NCBI GenBank assembly: GCA_963806185.1
Contig: CAWDXE010000001.1
Coordinates: 800,001 to 864,000, forward strand
Length of the DNA stretch: 64,000 nt
Direction: 5' to 3'
From: an uncultured candidate division Zixibacteria bacterium
GTDB lineage: Bacteria; Zixibacteria; MSB-5A5; GN15; FEB-12
Shown here: piece after piece, positions 1-62,792 of the stretch
How the letters are laid out: each line of letters starts with the position of its first letter
How positions within the stretch are numbered: the stretch's first letter is position 1
Translations under genes and position numbers: made by a program
The notes under the pieces: generated by a model
The model's input: the letters and a program-made list of their open reading frames with translations, nothing else
Told to the model about the DNA's origin: nothing
The model's database searches: none

Positions 1-330
1 ACCTCGTCATCCTGAATCATCCTCTCCCCCCTCGTCATCCTGAACCTTTTCTTAAAGGTTCAGGACCTCAGTGTCCACCGCTCTCTCGATCACGCCATTA
101 CAAGGCTCGCTTCTTAGCGGGCCGTGGCAATCTCGAACCTCCCGTATTTCAATGATTGATCATCTACGCACAACAATTGCCGTGCCGGAATCACCGGGCT
201 GAGCGGAAACGAAGCCTGAATATTCCCTCTGACGTTCGCCCTGCTCTTCTCTTCCCCCTCTCCCTTCAGGGAGAAGGTTGGGGTGAGGGCCCGTAGGGCA
301 GCTGTTTCGTCGCACTTCGACTTCGCTCTG
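1..330 (+). repeat. Mosaic palindromic repeat cluster 1 (GTCATCCTGAA, GTCATTGCGAGG-like, CCCTCTCCC and GCACTTCGACTTCGCTC elements)
   Basis: Hairpins at 33-69, 94-134 and 254-289 match elements repeated in other intergenic gaps of the window. Confidence 0.85.
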
Positions 331-435
331 GATAAACGTCGTCGAACCCCGGTCGTCCCCGTTACCAATAAGAATGGCGCCCTCAGAATTCACTCTGAAC
401 GGCGCCGTGATCATTTTCCTATGTTCGCCGGCTTC

Positions 436-828
436 TCAGTCTTCCCCCACCGCCTCTGCGTAATCCAGGTATTCACCCGCCTGCTTATTCCGGTTCTCCA
501 GCATCTCCAGATACAAGCGCCGCAACGGTGCAAAGTGGCACGTTTGACCGCAGGCCGTCTCGTCACTCAGGATGAAGCAATGTCCCGGACAGCGGGGCGA
601 GTTGTGAAGCGTCTGATCGGGTACGGCTTCTGAGACCAACTGCAGCAGCTCTTCGGCAGGTATTTTGAAAGCCGAGAGGCATGACGGATCTGTATGAAAG
701 AAATAGAAATGCAGACGCTGACTATTTTCGTCAAATTGCAGCCCCAGCGGCTCGAGACTGGTATCGGTCAGCAGTTCACGAACCGTGAACCAGACCTGGC
801 AAGCGGTGCATTGGGAAAATGGGCGCAT
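436..828 (-). CDS. Hypothetical Cys/His-rich protein, possible metal binder
   Basis: 130-aa ORF with CTAC, HxxxxC, CPGHC and CGQTC motifs; GAGG RBS upstream. Confidence 0.6.
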   Translation of the reverse strand: MRPFSQCTACQVWFTVRELLTDTSLEPLGLQFDENSQRLHFYFFHTDPSCLSAFKIPAEELLQLVSEAVPDQTLHNSPRCPGHCFILSDETACGQTCHFAPLRRLYLEMLENRNKQAGEYLDYAEAVGED

Positions 829-969
829 CTGGTATCCTCAGCTTCGTCGTCAAATGATCATGCTCTTTCTATCGGCGATCATCATGACGATTCCAAGAAT
901 TATCTCGCGTCGTCCTTCAGTCTGTTCAGCCCTTTATCAGACGGATGAAACGGTATTGACGCCGACCAA

Positions 970-999
970 TAAAAAACCCGCCGATGTTTCGGCGGGTTG
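970..999 (-). terminator. Intrinsic terminator after rplS
   Basis: AACCCGCCGA/TCGGCGGGTT stem with a T-run on the minus strand. Confidence 0.75.
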
Positions 1000-12581: not shown

Positions 12582-12872
12582 GTAGGTCAAGCTCCCCGCA
12601 AGCCTGACTTAAGGGACCTTGTGCCGGGAGCGTAGCCCCCACATCGTCATCCTGAATAATTCTTCTGATTCAAGACCTCAGTGTCAGCCGCCTTCTCGAC
12701 CGTGTCATCGCGAGGCTCGCTTCGAGCCGTGGCGATCTCTCAGGGCGTTCTCTTCGATGGTCATTCAATCAATCGTCACCACGCAAAACTGACGACGTCG
12801 CGAAGCGTCACCCTGAGCGGAGTCGAAGGGTGAGTCTCTGGAAACGTAGGTCACGCTCCCCGCGATCCTGAC
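12582..12872 (+). repeat. Mosaic palindromic repeat cluster 2
   Basis: GTAGGTCA REPs at 12582 and 12846; GTCATCCTGAA-linker-GTCATCGCGAGG composite at 12645-12739; GTCACCCTGAGCGGAGTCGAAGGG near 12807. Confidence 0.85.
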
Positions 12873-41054: not shown

Positions 41055-41089
41055 CCCCCAATATACCCCCACCCCCTCCCCCACGTCAA
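41055..41089 (-). promoter_or_regulatory. Putative S8 promoter overlapping a G-quadruplex motif
   Basis: Minus strand: TTGACG T GGGGG A GGGGG T GGGGG TATATT GGGGG. Confidence 0.55.
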
Positions 41090-42005: not shown

Positions 42006-42084
42006 TGTAAGTCGGGTCCTCCCCCCACATCACCGCCCATGCTCCGCATGCGGCGGTAATCGTGTTCCCCAAATTACCCCATAC

Positions 42085-42115
42085 AAAAACCCCGCGCTCG
42101 TCTCAGAACGCGGGG
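42085..42115 (-). terminator. Intrinsic terminator after clpC
   Basis: CCCCGCG...CGCGGGG stem plus T-run on the minus strand. Confidence 0.65.
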
Positions 42116-42144
42116 CCAATAGTCAATTCAATCGGCGCTGTGTC

Positions 42145-44602
<2,458 letters not shown>

Positions 44603-44665
44603 GGTGCATCTTCCTTTCATGTCACAACACACTCAAATATACGCTCACACAGATGTCGATGCAAG

Positions 44666-45744: not shown

Positions 45745-45762
45745 CTGTCGCTCCTCGTCGGC

Positions 45763-46296: not shown

Positions 46297-46317
46297 GGCT
46301 ATTCCCTTTCCTCCCCG

Positions 46318-47025: not shown

Positions 47026-47095
47026 ACTCAGCGCTTCTTTATTGATGTCGTCACATGGTGCCAAAGTTTTAGCTAACCCCGATCATTACTTTGTT

Positions 47096-48322: not shown

Positions 48323-48502
48323 GCGAACTGTGCCGACCTTTCCCGGCGCCGCCAGTCGGCTCAGGCGAGGAGTGCGCCGTGGCGCACGGACCTGCTTTAG
48401 GTGGAGTATATGGCCTCCCCGCCGACAAATGCAACGTCTTTCATCTCATAATGATACGTTACACAGTACCTCAAAGTCGAGCCAAATAAATGGGTGGAAA
48501 AC

Positions 48503-48722
48503 GTAGGGCGGAACTCATTTGCGATCACCACAGGTTACGCATCACCGGACGGAACGGGCAACGTAGGGCGGAACTCTCTTGCGATCACCAAAGGTTATGC
48601 ATCACCGGACGGAACGCGCAACGTAGGGCGGAACGCTCTTGCGATCACCAAAGGTTATGCATCACCGGACGGAACGCGCATTGAACACAGCCGTCAATCA
48701 GCGCAAGGGAGTTCCGCCCTAC
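48503..48722 (+). repeat. 60-bp tandem triplication of a GTAGGGCGGAAC arm closed by one inverted arm
   Basis: GTAG at 48503, 48563, 48623; inverse GCAAGGGAGTTCCGCCCTAC at 48703-48722. Confidence 0.9.
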
Positions 48723-48761
48723 TACGGCTATGCGGTTCGGGTTAGGTTCACTTGGGATCCG

Positions 48762-49160
48762 GTCATGGCGAGGCCCCCCCACAAACGTCATCGCGAGGCT
48801 CTCCCCCACAAACGTCATCGCGAGGCTCGCTTCGAGCCGTGGCGATCTTTCAGTTCTCTTCTTTTGTAGGTCAGGATCCCCGCTTCCGAGCGGGTGATCC
48901 TGACGCTCTGTTCAGCAAGGACGGCATCCCCACGCATACACACCGCTCGTCGCGCAGTGTCGTCCTGAGCGCCCCCCACCGTCGTCCTGAGCGCTCCCCC
49001 ACCGTCGTCCTGAGCGCCCCCCCACCGTCGTCCTGAGCGCTCCCCCACCGTCGTCCTGAGCGCAGTCGAAGGACGAGATAGTCAGCGTTAATGCGTGGCG
49101 TACGCCCCGTGCGCCAAGCAGGGTGAAAGAAGGCTGGCGCACGAGACGCACGCCAGCCAT
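48762..49160 (+). repeat. Mosaic palindromic repeat cluster 7
   Basis: Stuttered GTCATCGCGAGG, GTAGGTCAGGATC REP at 48866, stuttered GTCGTCCTGAGCG at 48959-49075, GGCGTACG doublet. Confidence 0.9.
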
Positions 49161-49223
49161 GAAGGCAACGCTCAATGTGAGACAAGAGGTCCGGGTAGAA
49201 GCGCATCACTTCACTAATACACC

Positions 49224-49258
49224 AAAACCCCCGCCGGGCTTTCGCCCAGCGGGGGTTT
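49224..49258 (-). terminator. Intrinsic terminator after hppA
   Basis: AAACCCCCGC.GGGC-TTTC-GCCC.GCGGGGGTTT. Confidence 0.7.
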
Positions 49259-49284
49259 CAATTCATCCAACCAATCCTCGCGCC

Positions 49285-51546
49285 CTAAATAAACAGCGGC
49301 GCCAGCACCAGCGTAATCGTCGATAACAGTTTCACCAGCACGTGAAGCGACGGACCAGCCGTGTCCTTAAACGGATCACCTACCGTGTCGCCCACCACCG
49401 CCGCACCGTGAATCGGGTTCTTCACCTTGCTGCCGTCGGCCAAAGTCAGATACTTCCCGCCATGCGCGCCGGTTTCGATATACTTCTTGGCGTTGTCCCA
49501 CGCGCCACCCGCGTTGTTCAGGAAGAGCGCCATGATGATACCGCCGATCGTCCCCACCATCAGAAACGCCGCCACCGACTGCGCGCCAATCAGCGGCTCA
49601 GCATCGGTGCGGAAGAGCAACTTGAAGACGACACCGACCAGTATCGGCGCGCAGACCACCAACAGACCCGGCAGTACCATCTCGCGCAGGGCCGACTTGG
49701 TGACGATATCCACGCACGCGCCGTATTCCGGCTTGAAGTCAGGCGTGAACACGATCATGTCGTTCTTGCGTGCCAGCTTAGAATACTGACGACGTACCTC
49801 TTCGATAATCGCCTTGGCCGCTTTACCCACCGCACGAATACAGAGCGACGAGAACAGGAAAACCAGCATGCAGCCGAGCATCGCGCCGACAAACACGACC
49901 GGATTCGACAGATCGACACGGAACGGTTCGCCACCGTTCGCAATAGATACCGGCGTAGTGCAGGACCTCGTCCATGTACGCCTGGAACAACAGGAAGGCC
50001 GCCAGACCGGCCGAGCCGACCGCGTACCCTTTGGTCAACGCCTTGGTCGTGTTGCCGACTGAATCCAGACGGTCCGTGCGTTCGCGAATATGTTCCGGCT
50101 GACTCGACATCTCGACAATACCACCGGCGTTGTCGGTGATCGGGCCAAACGTATCCATCGCCAGAATGTACGCGGCAGTGGCCAGCATACCCATCGTGGC
50201 GACCGCCGTACCAAACAGGCCGCCGCTCACCGATGCCATCCGGGAACGCCGCCTGGCCGAGGAAATACGACGCCAACAGCGCGCCGCCGGTGACCATCAC
50301 CGGGAGAGCCGTGCATTCAAAGCCGACCGCCACACCGGCAATGATGTTGGTCGCCGGACCGGTCGTCGAGGCGTCGGCAATCGACTCTCACCGGGCGATA
50401 TCGATATTCAGTGTAATACTGCGTGATGAACACGTAGAGAATCGACGTCACCACGCCGACGATACCGCAGACGAAGAAATGCCACCAGGCGTTTTCGGCG
50501 GCCGGTGTATACAGCAGCCAGCGGGTGGCCGCACCAAAACCGATCATGGCGAGAATCGCGGTGAAGAAATAACCGCGGTTGAGCGCCTGCATCGGATCTT
50601 CTTTTTCATTTTTCAGCTTCACCGACACGATGCCGATGATCGACGCGATGATACCAAACGCACGGGCGATCAACGGGAACATCATCACACCGATAATACC
50701 GGCGTCGAAATTGATATCCGCTCGCGCCGCCGCGGCCGCGAGCGTGGCGCCCAGAATCATGGCGCCGATATTTTCAGCGGCCGTCGATTCGAACAGGTCG
50801 GCCCCACGACCGGCGCAGTCACCGACGTTGTCACCGACCAGATCGGCGATCACCGCGGGGTTGCGCGGATCGTCTTCCGGAATACCGGCTTCGACTTTAC
50901 CCACCAGGTCCGCGCCGACGTCGGCCGCCTTGGTGTAAATACCGCCGCCCACCTGGGCGAACAGGGCGACAAACGACGCGCCAAAACCATAGCCGACAAT
51001 CAGGAGAGGAATCTGTGTGTCCGGGACCGCGGTTGTGTAGCGCACCAGCGCATACAGACCGGCGACACCCAGCAGCGACATGGCAACCACCAGACAGGCC
51101 CGACACCGCGCCGCCGCGAAGCGCGACGCGCAGGGCGTCGTTCAGATTATCCAGCGCCGCCGCAGCCGTGCGGATATTGGAGCGGATCGACACCCACATC
51201 CCGACATACCCGGCGATCACGGAACAGATGGCGCCGAGAACGAAAGATATCGTCACCCAGAACGCCAACTGCATCGGTGAGGATACCGGGTCAAATTCGC
51301 GATGACCGCGCAGGACGCCGTAGCCGAGAAAGAGCGCCACCGCGACCAGAAGCGCCAGCATGAGCGATGGTTCGGTTCTGGCGGCGAAGGAACGACTCGG
51401 CTCCCTCTTTGATGGCGTTGGAGATTTTCTGCATCGCCTCGGTGCCAGTGCCCTCGAGCAAGAACCCATCGGGCGAGCCACCAGGCGGCGAGCAGGCCAA
51501 AGAGGCTGATCCCAATGATGAGCCCTAGAAGCAGTCCTTCAGACAT
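49285..51546 (-). CDS. hppA: Membrane H+-translocating pyrophosphatase (frameshifts in assembly)
   Basis: [58 protein letters not shown]. Confidence 0.95.
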
Positions 51547-51733
51547 TAACCTCTCCTTTCGAATTCCTGTAATGGATTAAACAGCCGGGCAAAGGTATGG
51601 CCAACAGCGGGTTTTGGCAAGTATTTTGTGACGGCGAGAGGCCGGCGTGGACCCACCCGGTCGGTGCTGGAGGGGAATGATTTTCCGTCTGCAAAGCAAA
51701 ACCCCCTATCGTAGATCGGGAGTGCGATAATAA

Positions 51734-51763
51734 TTGCGGGGGGGGGGGCGCAGTAGCTATATT
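51734..51763 (+). promoter_or_regulatory. Putative promoter with G11 tract in the -35/-10 spacer
   Basis: TTGCGG-N18-TATATT; G run 51738-51748; ATG at 51809. Confidence 0.5.
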
Positions 51764-51808
51764 GCGACAGGCACACGTCTGTCGCCGGGGATAAAGTCGG
51801 GGTCGCCT

Positions 51809-54295
51809 ATGGAATTGCGGCAAAGCGTGAGGATCGTGATACTGTGCGCGGTGCTTTGCGCGGCGTTCGGCGTTGTGGCGTTTGCTCAGAATGACCCCAC
51901 TCATCGCCCGCGGTTCGATTACTTTCCTCATAACAACGGCAATATGCAGATGTGGATATCCAATCTGGGAACGTATGGTGACGGTGGGGAGGACGAACAA
52001 TTCTACGTTGATCCGCTGTCAGGCCAGTCACTTCCTTTCACGTTTGTCTATCCCAGAAACTCCCATGTCGTTTTCGGCGTCTTTGATCTTTGGATTGGCG
52101 GGAAGGTCAGTGGCGAGCCATCCGTTTCACAGGGTTACTGGGGCGAGCTGGTTTCTGATTATTCGCTTGCCAATCCGATGAGTATATCCACCATCGATCC
52201 GACAAAGGCCTGGTATTCGCCGCAGGCCCGATCAGAACTGGATATCAACTGTGAATACACCGATACTTTCCCGCGCCGCCAGCCGTTTCCGGTGGGCGAT
52301 CCAAATGATCCACTGATTCACCCTCCCCTGGGTGTGCGCGTGCACCAACGATCGATGTCCTGGTCGGCGGAGACTGTCAACGATTTCATTCTCATAGACC
52401 TGGTGTTCACGAATATCGGACGCGATGGGATCAAGGACGTGTATGTAGGCATCAGCGGAACTTCGACGTTCGCGGCATATATCGAATCGTATGCCGATTT
52501 CGATACTCTGCCCCATCAAGATGATCTGGCCGGATACCTGCGGAGCATGATTCTTCCTGGTGACTGCAACGAGCCGACCGAGCTCGGCGTCGCGTATATC
52601 ATGGATAACGACGGCGACCCCGAGGCTGGAGTCTTCGATGCCAAGTCGGCCCTTCCGGCTGTGGGGACGATCGTCCTGCGCTGCCCCGGGGATACACCGA
52701 CTGTCAGCTTCAATTGGTGGGCCTGGTTGCAGAACTACGGCCAACCAGTTCGCGAAGATTGGGGCCCGATGCACGAACGTCGCGAAGGTGAACCGCGTCC
52801 ACCAGTCGGCATGGGCACCGAGTACCCTTACGGCGACATTCAGCGCTATTATATCATGAGCCGCCCCGAGATTGACTATGATCAGGTGTATGCGGCCATT
52901 CTTCAGCAGGGTTGGATGCTGCCGGCCCGCCATGCCGATGAAGTCGCAGCCGGCAGTGGGGTGGCAATGCTTCACTCCGCCGGGCCGTTCGATCTCTTTC
53001 CCGGTCAGAGTGCTGAGTTTACCTTTGCTTTTGTCGGCGGCGAAAATGTCCACACCGACCCGACCAATTTCGAGCGCAACTTCATTCCCAGCAATCCAAG
53101 CGCCTATCTGGCCAATCTTGATTTTTCCGATCTCGCGCTCAACGCCCGCTGGGCACAGTGGGTGTATGATAATCCCGGTTTTGATACCGACGGCGACGGT
53201 TACCGCGGCGAGTACAGAATCTGTGACGGCGACACGCTTTGGTACCAGGGCGACGGTATCCCCGATTTCCGCGCCGACGTGCCGCCACCCGCTCCGCTGT
53301 TGCACGTTTACCCGTCGCAGGGGAAGCTGGTTTATCGCTGGAACGGCTACAACAGCGAGACATTTGTTGATCCGTTCACGCGCATCAAGGATTTCGAGGG
53401 GTACCGCGTGTACATGGGCCTCGACCAGCGCGAGTCGAGCCTGTCGATGATCAGCCAGTTTGATTATCCCAATTTCAACCGCTTTGTGATGCGCCAGAAA
53501 CTGAACGGAACGTGGGATTGGCAGAACAAAGATTTGCCCCTCTCGCTCGACTCACTGCGAAAATTCTTCAATGATCCGGAATTTGAGCCATCACTGTATC
53601 CACGGACCGACCCGCTCAAATTCCTGGACACCTTCTACTATTTCCAGACACAATCGTATAACGCGGCGCTGGCGCCGGACCAGGTGCACAAGGTCTACCC
53701 GGATGCGATAAAGCCGCCCGACGACACGCTTCAATGGACTGCCGACATGCTGACCGAAGAACATGGCAAACCGCTGCCCAGGTATTACGAGTATGAGTAT
53801 GTGCTGGACAAATTGCTGCCGACTATCGAGTATTATGCCAGTGTGACGGCGTTTGATTTCGGGTTTGCGTTTGGAGGGATACCTTCGAGGGAAGCAAGCA
53901 AGTATGCCAACATCACCAATGCGTATGCGATTCCTTCTGCGCAAACCGTAGCCAGTGAACACAGAGACGTCTACATCTGGCCCAATCCCTACCGGTATGA
54001 CGGCAACTATCTGGAGCAGGGATTCGAGAACCACGATCAGAGTCTCTGGTATGACCGGGCGCGACGGATTCACTTTGGCAATCTCCCCGCCAAGTGCACG
54101 ATCTCAATTCTCTCCCTCGACGGCGATCTGATCAAGGAGATTCATCACAGTTTTGCGCCGGACGATCCTGAGGCGCAACACGATTCGTTTGACCTGATCA
54201 GCCGAGCGGGTTTGCTGGTGGTCTCGGGTATTTATTACTGGGTGGTAGAGGGTGACGGCCGGACGCAGATGGGGAAGCTGGTGATAATTGAGTAG
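51809..54295 (+). CDS. Large secreted hypothetical protein (Fn3-like segment, PNPY C-terminal sorting-like domain)
   Basis: Signal peptide; DNDGD, GPFDL.PG, DFEGYRVY, YYASVTAFD, WPNPY...GIYYWVVE. Confidence 0.75.
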   Translation: MELRQSVRIVILCAVLCAAFGVVAFAQNDPTHRPRFDYFPHNNGNMQMWISNLGTYGDGGEDEQFYVDPLSGQSLPFTFVYPRNSHVVFGVFDLWIGGKVSGEPSVSQGYWGELVSDYSLANPMSISTIDPTKAWYSPQARSELDINCEYTDTFPRRQPFPVGDPNDPLIHPPLGVRVHQRSMSWSAETVNDFILIDLVFTNIGRDGIKDVYVGISGTSTFAAYIESYADFDTLPHQDDLAGYLRSMILPGDCNEPTELGVAYIMDNDGDPEAGVFDAKSALPAVGTIVLRCPGDTPTVSFNWWAWLQNYGQPVREDWGPMHERREGEPRPPVGMGTEYPYGDIQRYYIMSRPEIDYDQVYAAILQQGWMLPARHADEVAAGSGVAMLHSAGPFDLFPGQSAEFTFAFVGGENVHTDPTNFERNFIPSNPSAYLANLDFSDLALNARWAQWVYDNPGFDTDGDGYRGEYRICDGDTLWYQGDGIPDFRADVPPPAPLLHVYPSQGKLVYRWNGYNSETFVDPFTRIKDFEGYRVYMGLDQRESSLSMISQFDYPNFNRFVMRQKLNGTWDWQNKDLPLSLDSLRKFFNDPEFEPSLYPRTDPLKFLDTFYYFQTQSYNAALAPDQVHKVYPDAIKPPDDTLQWTADMLTEEHGKPLPRYYEYEYVLDKLLPTIEYYASVTAFDFGFAFGGIPSREASKYANITNAYAIPSAQTVASEHRDVYIWPNPYRYDGNYLEQGFENHDQSLWYDRARRIHFGNLPAKCTISILSLDGDLIKEIHHSFAPDDPEAQHDSFDLISRAGLLVVSGIYYWVVEGDGRTQMGKLVIIE

Positions 54296-54670
54296 GGCAG
54301 CACCGATACGAGTCTTCGAGCGGGTGCTGCCGTCTTGGTGAGGTCAAGGAATCTTATCGGCAGCATCCGTCCGCTAAGAAGCGGACATCGATGCTGCCCT
54401 ACGACCCGCCGTCAGGCTCACAGCGAGCCTGAGCTACTGTGTTGCCCCTCGTCATCCTGAATCATTCCCCTAAATCGTCATCCTGAATCATTATTATGAT
54501 TCAGGATCTCACTGTCCACCGTGTCTATCTGTGCCGCCGCAAAGCGTCGCACTGAGCGCTAGTCGAAGTGCGATTGAAGGGAATGGGGAGTCATCGCGAG
54601 GCGCGCTTCGAGCCGAGGCAGTTTTTCAGTTCTCTCTTGTGGGTCGAAACCGCAGGGCTATCGACCTGCA
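54292..54670. repeat. Mosaic palindromic repeat cluster 8
   Basis: REP doublet 54292-54402, minus REP 54410-54437, stuttered GTCATCCTGAA, CGTCGCACTGAGC and GTCATCGCGAGG elements. Confidence 0.9.
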
Positions 54671-54674
54671 ATCA

Positions 54675-55937
54675 TCAGAAGTTAGTAAGGCAGAACGGTC
54701 CGTGCGGCTGGGCAAACAGGCGGTCGATTGATTGGATCTGCCGGTCGTCGGAAATCTCCGCCAGCCCGTACAGGTGAAGTCTCGAAAACGAGATTGCCCC
54801 CAATACCAGCGATGAGAACTCGGCCACATTCATCGCAATCTCCACCTGCGGCTGTCCGCCCGCCACAACATGGGGACGGCCATGGTCGAACGAGACCGTT
54901 ACCGCGCCGTCGTTCTCCGGCATAAACGAATCGCGGATCACGAACCGGACGGTTACCGATTGATCGCCGAAGGAATGATCTTCGGTCACTTCGAAGAATC
55001 GTTTTGTATTGATCACCCGATACATCGCGCCGGCCGAATACAAACCTATCTGGTGGTAGACCGGTCCAAGCATGGTACCCGATCCGTCGCGCGGATCACG
55101 CACGGCAAAGTGGAAACTGGTGTCCCAGGTAGTAAAGATCACCCGGTTCACCTGATCGAACTGGCTCTGCATGAAAGCGCAGAGTTCCAAAAGCGCTGCG
55201 CGATCCTCCCACATCGGCTGCAACACGCGCAGATCATTCATCAGCATATTCAGCTGGTGCGCCGACTCGAAACGGAACAGCAGATAGCCGCGGATTTCCC
55301 CTCCTTCATCCACATAGCCGATATACCTGTTCTGCGGATTGGATTCCATTTTGATCCGCCAGTTCAGTTCAGTTTCATCGAGCAGACCGGTGTGTCGATC
55401 GTAGAAGCGCGAGTAGCAGGCCGCGAGCAGCGGCGCGTCATCGAGCGTCAGGTAGCGGACGTGCGCCTTCGCCTTCCCTTTCGGCAGTTCGGACGGCAGA
55501 AACTTGTACTGCACGATCGGCACGCTGTTGCCGAAGCCCATCTGGTAATAGAAATCGTGGCGGAACGGCCAGAGCACGGCAAGCGGCGCTTCGCGTTCGC
55601 GATAGAACTGCAGGTAGTACTGAACCATTTCCTTGGCGACCGCTTCCTTCTTGTGAAAGAGATCGACCGCTACCATTCCCAGGCCGCCGCAGCCGGCCGT
55701 TGTTTCAAACAGGCGCATCCGGTAGTCGATCATGCGCATGCCGCCGAGCATCTGCCCGTTGCGAAACAGCCCGTAACTCGCCGCGCGCGGATCGTCGTCC
55801 CACCGTCGCATCTTGGGCACGAACTTGCGGATTTCCTCTTCCGTGCTGGCCATCTTGAAGCCGGGATAGGCATCGACAACGAGCTGCCCGTAGCGGAAAT
55901 AGTCGTCGTCGGAGTTGATATGGCGAATGTCGACCAT
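54675..55937 (-). CDS. Eis-like GNAT acetyltransferase with C-terminal SCP2-like domain
   Basis: LGMVAV, LWPF..DFY..MGFG, IRD.F.PEN.G. Confidence 0.85.
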   Translation of the reverse strand: MVDIRHINSDDDYFRYGQLVVDAYPGFKMASTEEEIRKFVPKMRRWDDDPRAASYGLFRNGQMLGGMRMIDYRMRLFETTAGCGGLGMVAVDLFHKKEAVAKEMVQYYLQFYREREAPLAVLWPFRHDFYYQMGFGNSVPIVQYKFLPSELPKGKAKAHVRYLTLDDAPLLAACYSRFYDRHTGLLDETELNWRIKMESNPQNRYIGYVDEGGEIRGYLLFRFESAHQLNMLMNDLRVLQPMWEDRAALLELCAFMQSQFDQVNRVIFTTWDTSFHFAVRDPRDGSGTMLGPVYHQIGLYSAGAMYRVINTKRFFEVTEDHSFGDQSVTVRFVIRDSFMPENDGAVTVSFDHGRPHVVAGGQPQVEIAMNVAEFSSLVLGAISFSRLHLYGLAEISDDRQIQSIDRLFAQPHGPFCLTNF

Positions 55938-55980
55938 GGGTATAGTCTATGATACTTCGTCCGCTTTGGCAAGTCGAACG

Positions 55981-57966
55981 TTACTCGTGCGCGGTCATCG
56001 TTGCGGGGCGCAGGGCATGGGTGCGGTATTCGCGGTAGGCCGTCTGATACCAGGCGATGGCGTCGCGCACCAGGCCCGAATCGGAATCCACCGGCAAGCG
56101 GGTGAATTTGCCGGTATCCGGGTCGCGCGCCCACAATTCTATATCCTGCTTCAGGCCGAGAACGGCGAGTCGATTGTCGCGCAGCAATGCCACGTCGCGA
56201 TTGTGATTCATCAGCGCCCAGGTTTGACCCTCGGCGACATCGAGCAGATTCCGCCCGAAGAACTGGCTTTCATAGCTCACGTTCAACAATCCGAGAATCG
56301 TCGGAGCGACGTCCAGCTGCGATCCGAGAATGTCGACCGGGCGCGCCTCGGGAATTAGTGCCGGGCAGTAGAGCAGTACCGGAATTTCATACGAATCCAT
56401 CGGAATCTGTTGCGCACCGTAGACGCGCGCGCCGTGATCGCCCAAGAACACAAACAGGGTGCTGTCGAAAAATTTGTGTGACCGGGCGTCGCGAATGAAT
56501 TTGCCGATGGCATAATCGGCGTATGACACGGCATTCTCGCGGCGCTGCTGCTTCGGATCGGCCGCGATGCGCCCCTCCGGATAGGTATAGGGCGTGTGAT
56601 TTGAGACCGTCAGCAGGGTCGCGAAGAAGGGCTTCCCGCCTGCGCTCATCGAATCACACACGGTCAGGGCGTTGTTGAACAAGTCCTCGTCGCACACTCC
56701 CCAAATGGTTTTGAACTGCACGTTGCGCATGTCCGTCTGGTCGATCACCCGGTCGAAATCGTTGTTGGCGGCAAAATCACCCAGATTATCAAAGTACGAC
56801 CGACCGCCATAGATGAACGTCGTCTGATACCCCTGCGATTTAAGCACCGACGGCAATGTAAACACATGATGACCGCCGGGGCGACGAACAATCGAGTTGC
56901 CCGGCAACGGCGGGAAACCGGCCAGCGTTGCCTCGATGCCGCGTACGGTTCGATTGCCCGTGGCATAAATGTGGCGCAGGAGCAGGCCGTGCATTGCCAG
57001 GCTGTCAAACTCAGGTGTAAGATGTCCATTCTCGGGGTGAAGCAGGCCGACAAACTTTGAGCCAAAGCTCTCTTCCAACACCAGCACGACATTGAATCGT
57101 CGCGCCTCACCCGCTCCCCGTATCATTCGCCCCTGCGGAACAGACTCGCGAGTGGTGTCAATCACATCGGATTCTTTGCGCACCATATCGCGAACGCGCC
57201 TGTCGGCCTCGGCATCGTCGATACGGGCATAATACGTGTCGTAATCCAGCTCATTGGTACTCAATGCATAGAAGAAACTATAGTAGCCGTTCCCGGCGAT
57301 TTCGTTGAGCACGCGGTTATCAGACACCTGCGTGAAGCGATACGACAGGCCAAAGTAGCCAAGAGCCGCAATCGCAACGTACAGAAGCAGGTATTTGGGC
57401 CACGCACCTCTGGGCTGCGGCAGGACCCGACTGACGAGAATGGTTCGACGCAAATAGTATACGACAAGCAGGGCGATGATCGCCGATGCAATGAGCACCT
57501 GGAAAACCGGATAGGTATCCCAGAGATTGACAAAGACTTCGTGGGGAAAGAGGAGGTAATCGACGGCGACATAGTTGAACCGGGAATCGAATTCGCCGAA
57601 GAAGAAGTATTCCACTACACCCAGATACAACAAGCCAAAGGTATAGATGAAAAAGCCAACCAGCACCAGTCCCCGCACTGTCACCGACTTGAGCCAACGT
57701 TCCGGCAAGATTGTCAGAAAGACAAAGTAGAGTGCGCACAAACAGGCGGCGACAAAGAGATCGAAAAGCAGGCCGACGAGCAGGGCCGGGATGATGGACA
57801 GAAAATCGCCGTGCAGTTCACCTGCCCCGGCAAGAATCAAACTGATTCGAGTAAGTACGCAGACTGCGAGGTAGATACCAACGGCCACGCCCCAACCGGA
57901 ATAGCGGCTGTGAAAGAGAGCGGTGAGGGCACTGCGCGTGCGCGAACTGATTTGAGACAGAACCAT
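55981..57966 (-). CDS. LTA synthase family membrane sulfatase / phosphoglycerol transferase
   Basis: TM N-terminus; LEES, GNRTVRG, TVSNH.PY, GDHG, SQLDVAPT. Confidence 0.88.
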   Translation of the reverse strand: MVLSQISSRTRSALTALFHSRYSGWGVAVGIYLAVCVLTRISLILAGAGELHGDFLSIIPALLVGLLFDLFVAACLCALYFVFLTILPERWLKSVTVRGLVLVGFFIYTFGLLYLGVVEYFFFGEFDSRFNYVAVDYLLFPHEVFVNLWDTYPVFQVLIASAIIALLVVYYLRRTILVSRVLPQPRGAWPKYLLLYVAIAALGYFGLSYRFTQVSDNRVLNEIAGNGYYSFFYALSTNELDYDTYYARIDDAEADRRVRDMVRKESDVIDTTRESVPQGRMIRGAGEARRFNVVLVLEESFGSKFVGLLHPENGHLTPEFDSLAMHGLLLRHIYATGNRTVRGIEATLAGFPPLPGNSIVRRPGGHHVFTLPSVLKSQGYQTTFIYGGRSYFDNLGDFAANNDFDRVIDQTDMRNVQFKTIWGVCDEDLFNNALTVCDSMSAGGKPFFATLLTVSNHTPYTYPEGRIAADPKQQRRENAVSYADYAIGKFIRDARSHKFFDSTLFVFLGDHGARVYGAQQIPMDSYEIPVLLYCPALIPEARPVDILGSQLDVAPTILGLLNVSYESQFFGRNLLDVAEGQTWALMNHNRDVALLRDNRLAVLGLKQDIELWARDPDTGKFTRLPVDSDSGLVRDAIAWYQTAYREYRTHALRPATMTAHE

Positions 57967-58082
57967 CCGGTCGCCCGTAAACCTCCGGTTAATGATCGAT
58001 TGGTAAGCTCTAATTTATACATTCTGACTGAGGAACGCACCGAGTTTTCTATCCGCTCGATATGTTGCAATAATGCAACGGG

Positions 58083-58580
58083 TTACGAGTCTATGCGCGC
58101 GAGTCGCCGGAGTGCTTCATCGGTCACACGGAAAACGGTCCAGTCAGTCTGCGGAACGGCGCCGAGATTCTGATAAAATTCTATAGCCGGTTCATTCCAA
58201 TCCAGCACCGCCCACTCAAATCGTCCGCAATCACGCTCCATTGCGATTTGTGCGAGGCGAACCAGCATCTTTCGACCAAACCCTCGCCCCCGTATTTCGG
58301 GCGCGACATACAGGTCTTCCAGGTATAGCCCCGGTTTACCAAGAAACGTCGAAAAATTATGAAAGAACAACGCAAAGGCCACCGGCTCGCCGTCGTACTC
58401 CCCGATTATGGCCTCCGCCACTTTGCGCCCCCCGAACAGATTGTGCCGCAGCGTGTCCTCTGTGGCAACGACCGCGTGCGCCAACTTCTCGTACTCGGCC
58501 AGTTCCTTGATCAATCGAAGCAACAGCGCGACATCGCTGACAGTTGCTTCGCGGATAACCAACTGCTCGGATGCAGACAT
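58083..58580 (-). CDS. GNAT acetyltransferase (diamine acetyltransferase-like)
   Basis: ELAEYEK, FSTF.G, LEDLYV, RGRGFG, VLDWN.PA..FY. Confidence 0.9.
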   Translation of the reverse strand: MSASEQLVIREATVSDVALLLRLIKELAEYEKLAHAVVATEDTLRHNLFGGRKVAEAIIGEYDGEPVAFALFFHNFSTFLGKPGLYLEDLYVAPEIRGRGFGRKMLVRLAQIAMERDCGRFEWAVLDWNEPAIEFYQNLGAVPQTDWTVFRVTDEALRRLARIDS

Positions 58581-58590
58581 AGCCAATCTC

Positions 58591-59199
58591 CTACCAGATT
58601 TCTTCGTTCAGGCTCCGCCACAGGTACCACGAGGCAACCGAGCGATGCGGCTGCCACCGCTGGGCGAAATCGTCGTATTCGGCGACGGTCTCGAATGCTT
58701 CATACCATTTGTCGATCGCTTTGCGCAGCCCCAGATCAAGCGGCGCGAAAACGTCGGGGCGCGCCAGCACGAAGATCAGGTACATCTGCGCCGACCAGTT
58801 GCCGACACCGATCACCTGCGTCAGTTCGGCGATAACGTCATGATCGGGGATTTTGGCCAAACGGTGGAAATTCACCTGCCCCTGTTCCACCTTGGTCGCG
58901 AGATCGCGAACATATCTGATTTTTCCGCTGGAGAGGCCGGCCGAACGAAGCGAAACGTCATCAATACTCAACAGAGATTCCGGGGTCAGCTTGCGACCGT
59001 CATTGAGCGCGCGTACGCGGCGATTTATGGCATCGGCTGAAGCTCCGGACAGCTGCTGCCCGATAATGATCTCGATCATGCGTCCGAATCCGCCCGGCCG
59101 TCGACAAATCGGACATGGCCCGACGCGCCGGATGATTTTTCGCATGACCGGATCGACCGCGCAAAGATGTCGTTCGGCGTGATGGTTGGCGCTTGGCAT
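58591..59199 (-). CDS. alkA: DNA-3-methyladenine glycosylase II family (HhH-GPD)
   Basis: GQQLS, GLS..K..Y, GVG.WSA.MYL, R.DV....D, WQP.RS.A. Confidence 0.85.
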   Translation of the reverse strand: MPSANHHAERHLCAVDPVMRKIIRRVGPCPICRRPGGFGRMIEIIIGQQLSGASADAINRRVRALNDGRKLTPESLLSIDDVSLRSAGLSSGKIRYVRDLATKVEQGQVNFHRLAKIPDHDVIAELTQVIGVGNWSAQMYLIFVLARPDVFAPLDLGLRKAIDKWYEAFETVAEYDDFAQRWQPHRSVASWYLWRSLNEEIW

Positions 59200-59337
59200 G
59201 CGGAATAATACCGCTTCCCGAACATGGAGCGCAACAGTCTCATCGTCACTTTCGTATTCAATTTTGGTTGCTGACCGACCAGCCGTTGGTGATATTGTCC
59301 GGACAGGTTGCCGCCATTAACTGATTTCGGAGTCAAT

Positions 59338-62295
59338 GTGAATCTGCTATCGAACGATGACACCCGTCCCTTTCCGGTGTTGAGCGCCGGAGTCATGATC
59401 GGCCACTATCAGATCATCGAACGGATAGGAGCAGGTGGCATGGGCGAGGTGTTTCTGGCCGAGGACACCCAGCTTAAACGACGAGTGGCTCTGAAGTTTC
59501 TCCCTCCCCAATTCCTGGCCGAGGAAGACTACAAGACCCGCTTTCGTCGCGAGGCCCAGGCCGCGGCCGCTCTGAATCATCCCAATATCGTGACTATCCA
59601 CGAGGTAGCCGAACACATGGGACGGCCGTATATCGCCATGGAGCACGTCACCGGTCAGTCATTGCGGCAGAAGATTCAGACGGCGCCGCTGGCCATTGAG
59701 GACATTCTCGATCTGGGCATACAGATCGGCGAAGGACTGGCCAAGGCGCATCAACACGGCATCATCCATCGCGATATCAAGTCTATGAACATTCTGGTCG
59801 ACGCTGACGGTCGGGCGCGCATTCTCGATTTCGGACTGGCCGCGGTACAGGGAAGCGAACAGCTCACGCGCGCCGGCTCCACGCTGGGCACGGTGGCCTA
59901 TATGTCGCCGGAGCAGGTACTGGGCAAGCCGACCGATCACCGCTCCGACATTTTTTCGTTTGGCGTCGTACTCTTCGAGATGATCACCGGCCGCCTGCCG
60001 TTCACGCGCGATAACGACATCGCCACAGCCCAGGCGATTGCCAATGATCCGGCGCCACCGCTGCAAAATCTGCGCGCCTCCGCCACACCCGGTCTTCAGG
60101 CGATTATCGACAAGGCCCTGGATAAGGACAATAAGACCCGATATCAGACCGCCAACGATATGGTGGCTGATCTCAGGCGCGAAAAGCGGCTGCTGGATTC
60201 CGGCGCCCGCACAGCGTCGTATTCCGGTTCGGCGCTAGCGACCGCAAAAAAGAAACCGGCGTGGCGGGCAATTGCCCTCTCCGGAACGGCCCTCGTGATC
60301 GTCGTCGCCGCACTTCTCGTCCTGAAACCGTGGCAGTTCGAACTGAAATCGAGCAACGATGCCGTCGCGGGTGAAAACCGGCTCGCCATCATGTATTTCG
60401 ACAATCTGGCCGACCCCGACGATTCCCAGCGCATGGGACAGATCGTCACCGATCTGCTCATCACCGATTTGTCGGAGGCGCAGAATCTCAATGTCGTCTC
60501 CAGTCAGCGCCTCTATGATCTCCTCAAGCAGTTGGGCAAGGAGGGGGTGCGGTCGGTCGACAAGGAGACCGCGTCGCGCGTGGCGGAAAAGGCGCGCGCC
60601 AAGTGGATGCTGACCGGCAAGATTCTTCAGAGCACGCCAAAAGTCGTGCTGACCGCACAGGTGATCGACGTACAGAGCGGCGAAGTGAAGGCATCGAAGC
60701 GGATGGCGAGTAATGACGGCGAAGATATCTTCTCGCTGGTCGATAGACTGACGCTTGAATTGAGCAACGATCTTTCCGCGCCGGTATCCTCCGGACCGTC
60801 CAGTCACGCCCTCGCCGGCGCGACCACTCACTCGCAGGACGCCTATCGGTTGTTCCTCGAGGGCGTCGAGTTGATGATGGAGTTCAAAATGGATCAGGCC
60901 CGCGAGCGGTTTGTCGAGGCGCTCAAATATGATTCGACCATGGCGATGGCCTATTACCTGCTGTCGAACGGCAGTTCCAACGAGCAGGCGCAGGAGTATC
61001 TGGCCAAGGCGGTCAAGTTCGCCGATCGCGCCAGCCAGAAAGAGCGGTGGTATATCGCCAGCCGTCAGGCGGCGTTTAACGGTCGCTCCGATAGCGCCGT
61101 GTACTTTCTCAACCAGATCATCCAGCGCTACCCCGATGACAAAGAGGCGCACTACTTTCTGGCCACCGGGTACAGCGATCAAGGGCGTTTCCCCGAGGCA
61201 ATCGCGGAACTGGAAAAGGTGCTGGCGCTCGATCCCACCTACAAGGTAGCCGTGAATCAGCTCGGGTACATGTATATGCGCACGCAGGAATTTGCCAAAG
61301 CCGAAGACATCTTCAATCGTTACATCGCCATTGTACCGGACGAACCGAACCCGTACGACAGTCGCGCCGATCTCTACGCCTGGACCGGCCGGTTCACTGA
61401 GGCTATAGCCTCGTACAGTCGCACGCTGAAGGTTGATTCGTCCTTCTTCCAGAGCCGCATGAAGCTCTTCTCGCTCTATGTCTGGGTCGGCAACTACGAC
61501 AGCGCGGCGACGCTCATCCCTCGACTCCTGCAGGGAAGGAATGCCGAGGAGGTGGCGTTGGGTCGATCCGGCTCGGCCGCGATCAAGCTGGCACAAGGAC
61601 AATTTCGCGGGGCCTATGACGATATCTCGTCGGAATTCGCTGCCGTGTTCAGGAACGGCAAGCCGGCCGAACAGTTGGTCGGGTATCAGCGACTTTTCGG
61701 CATCGCCTACTACGCGGGCTGGACGGACACCATGAAAGCAGTGCTGCTGCGCATGGAACCGATACTGGCCGCTATCCCCGAGAACATCTTCCGCGGCCGC
61801 GATACCTGGGCGAGGTACTACGCACTGGTGGGTGATAAACAGAAGGCCGACAGCCTACTGACTTCTCTTGAAACCGATCTGCTGGCGAAATTCAAATCGC
61901 TGCCGGACGACTATCTGACAACCCGCGCAGTCCTGGACACTTGGCTGGGACGGCCGGAACGATCGGTCGCCCCGCTCGAACGGATGATGACGAAAATTCC
62001 GCTCCCCTTCGGGTCAGCCGTTCGCCTGTGTCAAGCGTACGTAGCGCTCAAGCAGTACGACAAGGCGATTGTTCTGCTTGAGAAGGCGATGCAGGTCTGC
62101 AATTCCGATTGGCTCTTCTCGGCCACTCTGCACGCTGAAGGGTACTACATGCTGGGGCAAGCGTACGAGGCGACGCAGCAGAATCAGAAGGCGGCCGAGG
62201 CGTACACCAGGTTTCTTGATATCTACAAGAACGCCGATCCGGGCCAGCCGAAGGTGGCTGATGCGCGGGCGCGCCTGGCGAAGTTGAAGGCGTAG
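59338..62295 (+). CDS. Hanks-type Ser/Thr kinase with TM, TolB-like and TPR domains
   Basis: GAGGMG.V, VALK, HRDIK, DFG, YMSPEQ, SDIFS; TPR repeats; start uncertain. Confidence 0.93.
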   Translation: MNLLSNDDTRPFPVLSAGVMIGHYQIIERIGAGGMGEVFLAEDTQLKRRVALKFLPPQFLAEEDYKTRFRREAQAAAALNHPNIVTIHEVAEHMGRPYIAMEHVTGQSLRQKIQTAPLAIEDILDLGIQIGEGLAKAHQHGIIHRDIKSMNILVDADGRARILDFGLAAVQGSEQLTRAGSTLGTVAYMSPEQVLGKPTDHRSDIFSFGVVLFEMITGRLPFTRDNDIATAQAIANDPAPPLQNLRASATPGLQAIIDKALDKDNKTRYQTANDMVADLRREKRLLDSGARTASYSGSALATAKKKPAWRAIALSGTALVIVVAALLVLKPWQFELKSSNDAVAGENRLAIMYFDNLADPDDSQRMGQIVTDLLITDLSEAQNLNVVSSQRLYDLLKQLGKEGVRSVDKETASRVAEKARAKWMLTGKILQSTPKVVLTAQVIDVQSGEVKASKRMASNDGEDIFSLVDRLTLELSNDLSAPVSSGPSSHALAGATTHSQDAYRLFLEGVELMMEFKMDQARERFVEALKYDSTMAMAYYLLSNGSSNEQAQEYLAKAVKFADRASQKERWYIASRQAAFNGRSDSAVYFLNQIIQRYPDDKEAHYFLATGYSDQGRFPEAIAELEKVLALDPTYKVAVNQLGYMYMRTQEFAKAEDIFNRYIAIVPDEPNPYDSRADLYAWTGRFTEAIASYSRTLKVDSSFFQSRMKLFSLYVWVGNYDSAATLIPRLLQGRNAEEVALGRSGSAAIKLAQGQFRGAYDDISSEFAAVFRNGKPAEQLVGYQRLFGIAYYAGWTDTMKAVLLRMEPILAAIPENIFRGRDTWARYYALVGDKQKADSLLTSLETDLLAKFKSLPDDYLTTRAVLDTWLGRPERSVAPLERMMTKIPLPFGSAVRLCQAYVALKQYDKAIVLLEKAMQVCNSDWLFSATLHAEGYYMLGQAYEATQQNQKAAEAYTRFLDIYKNADPGQPKVADARARLAKLKA

Positions 62296-62313
62296 GAGTC
62301 GGGCCACTTCGTA

Positions 62314-62792
62314 GTAGGTCAGGGGCCTCGCGCCCCTGACAGAAGGCTGCACTGCGGCATCAGAATAGAACGTCAGGATCACCCGCTAAGAAGCGGGGAT
62401 CCTGACCTACAAGACACTTACTTCTCCCCAAGGTCATCCCCGCCCTCCCCAATGTCATCCCCGCCCTCCCCAATGTCATCCCCGCCCTCCCCAATGTCAT
62501 CCCCGCCTTGAGCGGGGATCTATCCTCGGCACCAATGCGCCAAGTGACCATCTCTGCACAGCGGGTGTGATCCATCAGCAAAAGAGAGCTGAGAGATCGC
62601 CACGGCGCGAAGCGCGCCTCGCGATGACATCATAGGCGGATTTCATCTGTATTCGCGTATCACGGCGCTCACTCTTCCTCCCTCTCCCTCTGGGAGAGGG
62701 TTGGAGTGAGGGCCAAGTACGCTGAAGCGGCCGGCGAACGAGAGGTACGCCGGCCATAACCGACCGTCAGGCTCGCAGGGAGCCTGACCTAC
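62314..62792. repeat. Mosaic palindromic repeat cluster 9 (between convergent kinase and lysS)
   Basis: GTAGGTCAGG REPs, 21-bp stutter 62433-62521, GTCATCGCGAGG, CCCTCTCCC and GGCGTAC elements. Confidence 0.9.

What the first reader, a model, noticed from the sequence alone, without database searches (positions are those of the whole stretch)
1..62792. Intergenic gaps are multi-family palindrome mosaics, with only one candidate mobiliser in view
Seen: nine clusters (1-330, 12582-12872, 26484-27090, 27986-28175, 28793-29298, 41350-42005, 48503-49160, 54292-54670, 62314-62792), many downstream of gene 3' ends, stack about ten families side by side. Known: GTAG-tagged REPs are tied to RAYT HUH nucleases, and CGTC-tagged palindromes are a described class with no settled mobiliser. 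The REP of the one RAYT here (CCCACCG-GAA-CGGTGGG) was not seen in any mosaic. Inference: several other nucleases elsewhere in the genome (more RAYTs, perhaps small GIY-YIG or DUF559-type genes) each maintain a family, and families preferentially land beside one another.
Basis: partly seen in the sequence, partly recalled or inferred. Interest (0 to 1): 0.72.

Follow-up and report, generated by a model that had tools for sequence, protein, structure and literature searches.

The report
Hairpin mosaics tracing multiple replication origins
These patchworks of short DNA hairpins resemble the repeats of three known small-nuclease systems, and across the genome they mostly point toward about ten places where the DNA's strand bias flips, which suggests this bacterium likely starts copying its chromosome at many sites rather than one.

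Summary
Genome-wide, 621 hairpins of 19 types share gaps far beyond chance. Six RAYT genes and four Ssn-type GIY-YIG genes are each flanked by their own repeat. The third class (BoxC) flanks DUF559 genes in relatives, but no such gene was found here. This scan has reported these repeat–nuclease kinds before on other DNA.

The new result is what orders them. Hairpins of unrelated nucleases stack head-to-tail on the locally C-rich strand (69 of 74 mosaics), independent of transcription. GC skew here is a sawtooth with ten upward flips, one inside this window. None lies at dnaA; the dif-like site has the same skew on both sides. A separate 55-bp element, one copy at window 41,222–41,278, lies within 35 kb of 11 of 14 rises. 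A single-contig relative shows the same sawtooth, with a 300-bp DnaA-box repeat at all four mapped rises; another relative looks single-origin.

Best reading: replication likely starts at many sites, and fork direction likely decides where the repeats persist. This rests on sequence composition only: no reads, no initiator identified.

The parts
1..330 (+). Mosaic: CGTC-type S1, a degenerate S2, BoxC-type K; continues upstream of the window
12582..12872 (+). Mosaic: GTAG-type R1b, S1-26 nt-S2 doublet, S3; 4 of 4 on the + (C-rich) strand although flanking genes are on -
26484..27090 (+). Mosaic: S1-S2 doublet, R1e x2, R4, inverted R2 pair, R1d; 7 of 8 on +
27928..28175 (+).
28793..29298 (+). 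Mosaic with an internal ~185-bp duplication: R1c, S2, K, S3, S2, K, S3, R1g; 8 of 8 on +
35781..37036 (.). RAYT cassette: nine tandem R5 repeats (69-bp unit) and one inverted copy around the gene
36079..36615 (-). REP-associated tyrosine transposase (RAYT), 178 aa
   Evidence: Pfam Y1_Tnp; NCBIfam NF047646 at 104.9 bits, cut-off 80
41050..41430 (.). Extended non-REP element O; 41,227-41,428 is 88% identical to a copy on contig C7
41222..41278 (+). Conserved ~55-bp core of element O, one of 12 copies in the genome; candidate marker of an initiation zone
   Evidence: no Rfam match
41350..42005 (.). Mosaic at the start of the skew ramp, mixed orientation (4 +, 4 -): R4 pair, S2, S1, R1f, K x2, R3b
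48503..49160 (+). Mosaic: R3-derived 60-bp tandem array, S2, R1c, 23-bp tandem partial S3 arms plus full S3, R4
54292..54670 (+). Mosaic: inverted R2 pair (folds as one long hairpin, z = -7.35), S1, S3
62314..62792 (.). Mosaic near the skew flip, mixed orientation (3 +, 3 -): R1d, R1c, S4 with 21-bp partial arms, S2, K, R1b
40000..64000 (.). Rising part of the GC-skew flip: third-position skew about -0.25 left of 40 kb, about 0 at 50-70 kb, about +0.2 beyond 70 kb; fitted centre near 59,000, width 40-60 kb

Best explanation
The mosaics are head-to-tail stacks of hairpin repeats of three nuclease-linked classes that lie mostly on the locally C-rich strand and crowd around about ten upward flips of GC skew, likely because this chromosome is replicated from many initiation zones and fork direction likely decides where each repeat can persist. 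Shown: three repeat classes; cognate RAYT and Ssn-type genes flanked by their own repeat; non-random sharing of gaps; common polarity; a sawtooth skew decoupled from dnaA, from the dif-like site and from gene orientation; a separate element (O) near most rises. Inferred, step 1: the rises are bidirectional initiation zones with diffuse termination between them. Inferred, step 2: the C-rich strand is the leading-strand template. RAYT and Ssn enzymes act only on the single-stranded tagged strand, so copies exposed on the lagging-strand template would be cut and lost (or new copies would be laid down in the nascent lagging strand). One orientation is then safe where forks run one way, and neither where they run both ways, which gives polarity and the lack of repeats where skew is near zero. 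Inferred, step 3: occupied gaps grow by insertion next to resident hairpins, by copying of ready-made doublets and by local duplication. What fires the extra origins is not identified; O here and a 300-bp DnaA-box repeat in relative G040 are the candidates.
For: Polarity: 352 of 404 elements and 69 of 74 mosaics where |skew| >= 0.1 (p 2e-15); transcription predicts 30 of 52 and regional gene bias 48 of 97; where transcription and skew disagree, 16 of 19 follow skew. Unlike RAYT-type/Ssn-type neighbours point the same way in 112 of 135 pairs. Clusters per 20 kb fall from 1.68 within 20 kb of a rise to 0.14 beyond 150 kb. Sawtooth: 9 rises above 0.2 against 2 falls in 172 steps of 20 kb, skewness p 4e-5; element-free intergenic DNA tracks it at r = 0.86 over 86 bins; 10 upward sign changes. 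Skew is -0.08/-0.09 either side of dnaA and +0.27/+0.29 either side of the dif-like site, where gene-strand share drops from 0.72 to 0.16. Rises are 10-60 kb ramps; gene-strand bias does not flip with them; an 11-gene block inside one ramp is collinear with G012. No skew step at individual mosaics. Second genome G040 (one contig, another family): a rise predicted in advance near 3.40 Mb was found at 3.385 Mb, with three more at about 190-270 kb spacing; a 300-bp repeat lies within about 13 kb of all four and predicts skew outside that span (r = 0.53, 32 loci, p about 0.007; single-origin model 0.38). Control G012 flips at dnaA. O marks 11 of 14 rises within 35 kb against a mean of 5.1 for random mosaics (p 1e-4).
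Against: All of it is base composition: no sequencing run was listed, so no coverage test. No shared initiator gene among 108 proteins at eight rises, no Rep_3 protein, and DnaA is intact. O is near the rises, not at them: 4 within 15 kb, no better than chance (p 0.35); the rises at C4:183k, C6:152k and C7:155k have none; it has no DnaA-box cluster and no counterpart in 284 other genomes of the phylum beyond three single one-mismatch hits. The G040 repeat has only one perfect DnaA box, in 6 of 8 aligned copies, and of four further copies inside held loci two show a rise, one is flat and one falls. Half of my advance prediction failed: skew did not stay positive to 3.63 Mb. In G012 a RAYT-type repeat shows no polarity (23 of 49 on the C-rich arm, counted). 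R5 (8 of 15), R2 and R3b (6 of 9 each) are weakly or not polar, and the published SRM motif alone gives 11 of 17, p 0.33. G012 was sampled only every 95 kb (21% of the genome), G027 not at all.
Confidence: 0.6

Rival explanations
1. One ordinary origin; the skew flips come from inversions or misjoins at the repeats, and the repeats were polarised along two replichores before the genome or the assembly was shuffled.
For: Aberrant skew in complete genomes was traced to probable misassembly at repeats in 5 of 12 cases examined (PMC7111523, passages). Gene order differs widely from G012. One stretch (C7:120-155 kb) has an abrupt fall followed by a rise, as an inversion would. In G040 the rises sit at copies of one repeat.
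Against: Inversions give abrupt falls as often as abrupt rises; here 9 against 2, with slow declines between. Rises are ramps tens of kb wide. Gene-strand bias does not flip with skew and still turns at the dif-like site. G040's repeat copies are 68-87% identical to the query, and its 3.3-4.0 Mb span shows only rises.
Confidence: 0.1
2. Extra replication is real but not the normal cell cycle: breaks or nicks at repeat-rich zones, or phage-like run-off replication from O-type elements, start occasional bidirectional synthesis whose products are inherited. Here the nucleases and repeats help cause the skew rather than only record it.
For: Three of five hairpin-flanked GIY-YIG genes lie within 10 kb of a rise, against 21% of mosaics. 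Mosaics at the rises have mixed orientation. Neither RNase HI model hits any of 5 genomes. The two relatives with off-dnaA rises (G040, G022) carry the S2 repeat and G012 does not. G040 keeps a weak two-arm trend.
Against: No skew step at individual mosaics. Most rises have no nuclease gene. The RNase HI absence is shared with G012, which looks single-origin. Three genomes against one is too few for the S2 link.
Confidence: 0.2
3. Strand-selective uptake: Ssn cuts the tagged strand of incoming DNA, so only the untagged strand recombines; its deamination builds the skew around polarised repeats, with no extra origins.
For: SsnA cuts only the tagged single strand and lowers transformation by repeat-bearing DNA in Neisseria (PMC11893778, parts 2-3). 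The sign fits: the untagged strand is the G-rich one.
Against: It does not explain why repeats converge on a few points, linear declines over 100-300 kb, strong skew in repeat-free stretches such as C1:890-930 kb, or the absence of a local step.
Confidence: 0.05
4. Ordinary BIME/NIME-like mosaics kept as terminators or mRNA stabilisers at gene 3' ends, oriented by transcription, with skew incidental.
For: Convergent gaps are over-represented: 55 of 177 occupied against 269 of 2045. REPs lie mostly downstream of genes (PMC3733652, abstract).
Against: Transcription predicts orientation in 30 of 52 mosaics, skew in 16 of 19 discordant cases. Clustering survives stratification by gap orientation.
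Confidence: 0.05

Closest known systems
Ssn nucleases with NTS/SRM repeats (Chenal et al. 2025, PMC11893778; parts 1-5 of 11 and passages read)
   Same: Small single-domain GIY-YIG genes between inverted CGTC-type hairpins; four proteins here match an NTS-flanked Neisseria protein at 43-47% identity, E 6e-27 to 2e-17; repeats cluster in gaps.
   Different: Four such genes with three repeat types in one genome; only S4 fits the published SRM motif (20 of 43; 0 of 256 others); stacked with RAYT and BoxC repeats; polarity follows skew (the word 'lagging' does not occur in that paper).
GTAG REPs with RAYT/TnpA-REP, REPtrons, BIMEs (PMC3733652, part 1 of 8 and passages; PMC6006769, passages)
   Same: Six Y1 genes with HUH and Y-x-x-x-N-P motifs, each flanked by its own GT(A/G)G/GTAC-tagged hairpin; some inverted doublets.
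   Different: Mostly single head-to-tail units interleaved with other classes. For CGTC repeats the 2013 survey calls head-to-tail dimers negligible; here unlike CGTC neighbours are co-oriented in 84 of 89 pairs.
BoxC / PIT / TM-ECO triplex motif (Holder et al. 2015, PMC4666352, passages)
   Same: 12 of 44 K copies match the consensus exactly and 37 of 44 within two mismatches; intergenic.
   Different: That paper found no mobility gene and no strand bias in E. coli. Here K lies inside mosaics (21 of 28 on the C-rich strand), and in relatives such motifs flank stand-alone DUF559 genes.
Neisserial mosaic intergenic regions (as cited in PMC3733652, passage)
   Same: CGTC-1/dRS3 repeats interleaved with other repeat families in large gaps.
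   Different: Three nuclease classes and up to 8 types per cluster, with one polarity.
Multi-origin and origin-independent replication: archaea, some cyanobacteria; skew-based proposals for Wigglesworthia, Wolbachia, Synechocystis, Mycoplasma pulmonis (PMC3269012 and PMC12999951, passages)
   Same: Several changes of skew polarity on one chromosome; dnaA not at a flip.
   Different: A regular abrupt-rise, slow-fall profile of large amplitude in a 57% GC genome that keeps dnaA, parS-like and dif-like sites; an independent readout from repeat polarity; a dispersed element near the rises; a second genome with the same profile.
IS200/IS605 lagging-strand targeting (abstract start of PMC6006769)
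   Same: HUH enzymes acting on single-stranded hairpins at the fork give strand-biased placement.
   Different: [quoted passage not shown]

Membership tests
RAYT / REPtron | Y1 HUH protein of the REP-associated class | tested here: met
   NF047646 above cut-off for the two proteins scanned (104.9 and 98.9 bits); all six hit Y1_Tnp and show HxH and YxxxNP
RAYT / REPtron | Gene flanked by tagged hairpins that are also dispersed in the genome | tested here: met
   6 of 6 flanked on both sides by R1a, R2, R3, R4, R5, R5; 12-66 copies each
RAYT / REPtron | Cleavage of single-stranded DNA next to the REP | not testable with these tools
   needs purified protein
Ssn nuclease / SRM | Small single-domain GIY-YIG protein matching SsnA at E below 1e-10 | tested here: met
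   4 of 6 small GIY-YIG genes pass with an NTS-flanked N. gonorrhoeae protein as query; C5:47.8k (2e-7) and C5:189.7k (4e-4) do not
Ssn nuclease / SRM | Gene flanked on both sides by hairpin repeats | tested here: met
   4 of 4 (S2, S2, S5, S4; the second S4 arm is a variant read by eye)
Ssn nuclease / SRM | Repeats fit the published SRM search motif | tested here: inconclusive
   met for S4 (20 of 43), not met for S1, S1c, S2, S3, S5 (0 of 256)
Ssn nuclease / SRM | Assignment to CDD family cd10448; ssDNA-only cleavage upstream of the hairpin | not testable with these tools
   no CDD library; no assay
BoxC / TM-ECO | Match to the published consensus; intergenic | tested here: met
   12 exact, 37 within two mismatches, of 44
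BoxC / TM-ECO | Triplex formation | not testable with these tools
   the folding tool models only the hairpin
DUF559-BoxC cassette (scan-internal kind) | Stand-alone DUF559 gene flanked by the motif in the same genome | tested here: not met
   no DUF559 in this 82%-complete assembly; in relatives 7 of 7 stand-alone genes have the motif on at least one side, 6 of 7 on both
Canonical single-origin bacterial chromosome | One upward skew flip at dnaA/oriC and one downward flip at dif | tested here: not met
   10 upward sign changes; no flip at dnaA or at the dif-like site; met in G012
DnaA-dependent oriC (for element O and the G040 repeat) | Cluster of DnaA boxes plus AT-rich unwinding element | tested here: not met
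   O: no box cluster. G040 repeat: one perfect box in 6 of 8 copies, 54-60% AT
Multi-origin replication | Several peaks in marker frequency or switches in Okazaki-fragment strand | not testable with these tools
   no run was listed

The most novel reading that the evidence does not exclude
Some members of this uncultured bacterial order have moved from one oriC to ten to twenty chromosomal origins, seeded by lineage-specific non-coding elements that spread inside nuclease-linked hairpin mosaics, while keeping dnaA, parS and dif. The mosaics then record fork direction across the chromosome, and GC skew has the abrupt-rise, slow-fall profile expected of many origins with diffuse termination.
Probability: 0.5. 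Interest if true: 0.93.

Novelty: new variant of a known kind. Interest (0 to 1): 0.8.

Why it matters
One origin per bacterial chromosome is close to a rule; the exceptions proposed from skew were noisy and open to other readings. Here the profile is regular, is seen in two genomes of different families, is backed by an independent marker (repeat polarity), and comes with candidate cis-elements. That makes multi-origin replication in bacteria directly testable by read depth in existing metagenomes and by DnaA assays. It also gives a first clue to the life cycle of Ssn- and RAYT-linked repeats (loss from, or avoidance of, the lagging-strand template). If true, growth-rate estimates from coverage and assembly checks by GC skew would mislead for such genomes. 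The repeat-nuclease pairings alone are known or were already noted by this scan and would merit about 0.3.

Tried and rejected
DUF559 in this genome: none by profile or by tblastn with six relatives' proteins (best E 0.07). Transcription and regional gene bias as the cause of polarity: rejected. Local skew made by each mosaic: no step at 1-kb or 5-kb scale. Shared initiator gene at the rises: none among 108 of 269 listed proteins scanned at E 1e-15; Rep_3 absent in 5 of 5 genomes. DnaA-box clusters at the rises: only the C1:1,095k cluster lies near a weak one. G040's repeat in other genomes: 0 of 60 and not in G000. O in other genomes: 0 of 40 by BLAST; three single one-mismatch hits in 284 by pattern, like the reversed control. 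A short resemblance between O and the G040 repeat is too weak to call homology. Rfam: nothing for either element. An analogous element in G022: none in 20 held loci. The idea that G040 copies with a decayed DnaA box are inactive: not supported, both show a rise. RNase HI loss as the cause: absent in G012 too. Sequencing runs: none was listed. Dense skew sampling of G012 and G027 was not obtained, so the single-origin control rests on 40 stretches of 20 kb. Literature: searches (DUF559, BoxC, ycjD; skew, multiple origins, Zixibacteria) listed nothing that reports the DUF559-BoxC link or this skew profile; most subscription papers are not searched and no supplements were read (those of PMC7111523 list aberrant-skew genomes and may bear on novelty).

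Full report
Setting. The window is C1:800,001-864,000 of a 3.65-Mb, 8-contig, 82%-complete genome. An earlier scan note calls the organism Zixibacteria; I did not test that label. Several window genes are split by frameshifts (ClpC-type, pyrophosphatase), which suggests a long-read assembly with indel errors (inference).

Observation. The nine clusters are there. I wrote 19 two-armed patterns from the window and from genome-wide word counts; a shuffled genome gave 0 exact and 14 one-mismatch hits. After removing overlaps there are 621 elements in 195 clusters, 116 with two or more types: 299 CGTC-type (S), 278 GTAG-type (R), 44 of a purine/pyrimidine type (K). 611 are intergenic. They fill 177 of 2045 gaps; 80 gaps hold three or more superfamilies and 27 hold all three classes. 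Eight null models gave at most 50 and 19 in 500 permutations each.

Nucleases. Six Y1 genes are each flanked by their own R family; the two scanned pass the RAYT model. Of six small GIY-YIG genes, four sit between inverted S repeats and match an NTS-flanked Neisseria protein below the E 1e-10 threshold used by Chenal et al. (PMC11893778, parts 1-5 of 11 and passages read). A fifth has S3 on one side and fails the threshold; the sixth sits between a tRNA and its partial repeat. Only S4 fits the published SRM motif. K matches the BoxC/TM-ECO consensus (PMC4666352, passages). No DUF559 gene was found here. Among 13 DUF559 matches in 40 relatives I printed 10 loci: 7 stand-alone genes all carry K-like motifs (6 on both sides), 3 weak matches do not; 2 weak matches in long genes were not inspected and 1 locus repeats another. 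This scan had noted both the REP-plus-Ssn mosaics and the DUF559-BoxC link on other DNA.

Grammar. Unlike neighbours within 130 nt point the same way: R with S 112 of 135, S with S 84 of 89, R with R 36 of 51; K is looser (29 of 56). The 2013 survey found head-to-tail CGTC dimers negligible (PMC3733652, passage). Each family carries its own short 3' tail whatever follows it. S1 to S2 is exactly 26 nt in 17 of 25 pairs, with no indel but 49% identity in the last 15 nt, so this doublet is an old unit under a length constraint. Local duplications add to it.

What sets the polarity. Orientation is regional. I computed GC skew at third codon positions with the coding-strand offset removed (own gene caller, 3129 genes). 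Where |skew| is at least 0.1 the tagged strand is the C-rich strand for 352 of 404 elements and 69 of 74 mosaics. Dropped before that count: 55 elements beside nuclease genes or without a skew value and 162 in weak skew; for mosaics, families R2, R3, R3b, R5 and K were left out of the vote, and 6 ties and 23 weak-skew cases were set aside from 103. Transcription predicts 30 of 52, and loses 16 of 19 discordant cases. Density falls twelvefold with distance from the rises. Against: R5, R2 and R3b are weakly or not polar; the published SRM motif alone gives 11 of 17; a RAYT-type repeat in G012 is not polar (23 of 49).

The skew itself is the surprise. It rises abruptly and declines slowly, again and again: 9 rises against 2 falls above 0.2 in 172 steps, 10 upward sign changes, amplitude up to 0.47. 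Element-free intergenic DNA follows it (r 0.86). One rise is centred near window position 59,000, where the mosaics turn from all-plus to mixed. dnaA is intact but lies in a slow decline. Two parS-like sites and a four-box DnaA cluster lie near a weak rise at the end of C1, and a dif-like site on C7 has +0.27 and +0.29 on its two sides while gene-strand share drops there from 0.72 to 0.16 (the parS and dif labels rest on recalled consensus motifs). So gene orientation keeps the oriC-dif plan and substitution bias does not. Misjoins are unlikely: ramps are 10-60 kb wide, gene bias does not flip, and one ramp holds a block collinear with G012.

Other genomes. G012 (same family, one contig; 40 stretches of 20 kb) has two arms with the rise at dnaA: 30-34 of 40 signs agree and residual SD is 0.06, against 25-26 of 40 and 0.094 for G040. 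G022 shows a second rise near 400 kb of contig C3, where its repeats flip. For G040 (same order, one contig) I noted in advance that repeat polarity predicts a rise near 3.40 Mb and positive skew to 3.63 Mb. The rise was found; the second half was wrong because skew falls and rises again near 3.57, 3.76 and 4.02 Mb. Repeats lie on the C-rich strand 50 to 22 in G040, 15 to 4 in G022, 8 to 6 in G012 (one G040 locus at a nuclease cassette left out). A 300-bp non-coding repeat has 19 strong and 5 weak matches in G040, lies within about 13 kb of all four rises, and has a 25-nt match beside dnaA. Treating its copies as origins predicts skew outside the discovery span (r 0.53, 32 loci, p about 0.007). 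At fine scale two further copies show a rise, one is flat and one falls, and it has a single perfect DnaA box. Dense controls in G012 and G027 are missing.

With the list of rises fixed earlier, O marks 4, 8, 11 and 11 of 14 rises within 15, 25, 35 and 50 kb; p 0.35, 0.004, 1e-4, 1e-4 against random mosaics. For about seven copies skew crosses zero 15-30 kb ahead of it; for three it crosses at or behind it. It is thus a marker of the zones, not shown to be the start site. It is confined to this genome among those searched.

Mechanism. By the usual rule (established knowledge; G012 obeys it) the G-rich strand is the lagging-strand template, which is exposed as single strand. An abrupt rise is then a bidirectional start and a slow fall is diffuse termination. 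The tagged strand, the only one SsnA cuts (PMC11893778), would lie on the leading-strand template. Loss of exposed copies explains both polarity and the lack of repeats where forks run both ways; deposition in the nascent lagging strand would fit equally. I give this 0.6. Occasional break- or phage-type initiation, where the nucleases help cause the pattern, gets 0.2; rearrangement or misassembly 0.1.

Novelty. The three repeat classes are known, two with described enzymes. Multi-origin replication is established in archaea and was proposed from skew for a few bacteria, with caveats (PMC3269012, passages; PMC12999951, passages). My searches (scan look-ups) listed no report of this profile or of repeat polarity tied to it; one scan note describes a dispersed DnaA-box repeat that follows replication direction in another genome. 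Verdict: real; known parts in a new arrangement that points to an unusual mode of replication; interest 0.8.

Noticed in passing
window 42145-44480, 44988-45542, 49285-51090: ClpC-type ATPase, McsB and the membrane pyrophosphatase appear in pieces, probably assembly frameshifts; this may explain the low completeness score.
   Followed up: no
window 28151-28162, 28810-28821, 26557-26568, 54371-54382 and others: The same short loop insert (GCTTCTTAGC type) sits inside hairpins of seven families of both classes: R1c 12 of 12, S1c 4 of 4, S2 21 of 95, R2 8 of 27, R1g 7 of 22, S1 7 of 55, S5 1 of 64. It also occurs in relatives. It suggests exchange of loops between classes.
   Followed up: partly
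window 12678-12703 and 16 other S1-S2 linkers: An invariant C seven bases before the S2 tag in 17 of 17 linkers of 26 nt; it may mark the cut region of the cognate nuclease.
   Followed up: no
window 62424-62528, 48950-49063: Tandem runs of left arms only (21- and 23-bp units) stand directly before full S4 and S3 hairpins, as if copying restarted at the hairpin foot.
   Followed up: no
G000:C1:866467-866769 (L057:6467-6769): Ssn-type gene between inverted S5 repeats, 2.5 kb past the window end and within 10 kb of the skew rise.
   Followed up: yes
G000:C5:189656-190050: A small GIY-YIG gene lies between tRNA-Met and a repeat of its 3' end, a different cassette type.
   Followed up: no
L104:15959-18994 (G040 3.381-3.384 Mb): Two inverted copies of the G040 repeat enclose a Dam-type methyltransferase and an unknown 473-aa gene: possible cargo capture.
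   Followed up: partly
G000, G012, G022, G027, G040: Neither RNase HI model (PF00075, PF13456) hits any of the five genomes.
   Followed up: no
G000:C6:138289, C6:205863, C6:226498: A further 240-bp non-coding family in three copies that shares a short palindrome with the region left of the window's O copy.
   Followed up: no
G000:C1:199.4k, 501.5k, 1079.5k; C5:275.1k; C4:283.8k: One subfamily of O has an upstream part with an 11-bp direct repeat about 21 bp apart, iteron-like in spacing (the comparison with iterons is recalled).
   Followed up: no
G000:C7:120000-155000: An abrupt fall followed by a rise in skew, the one stretch that looks like an inversion.
   Followed up: no
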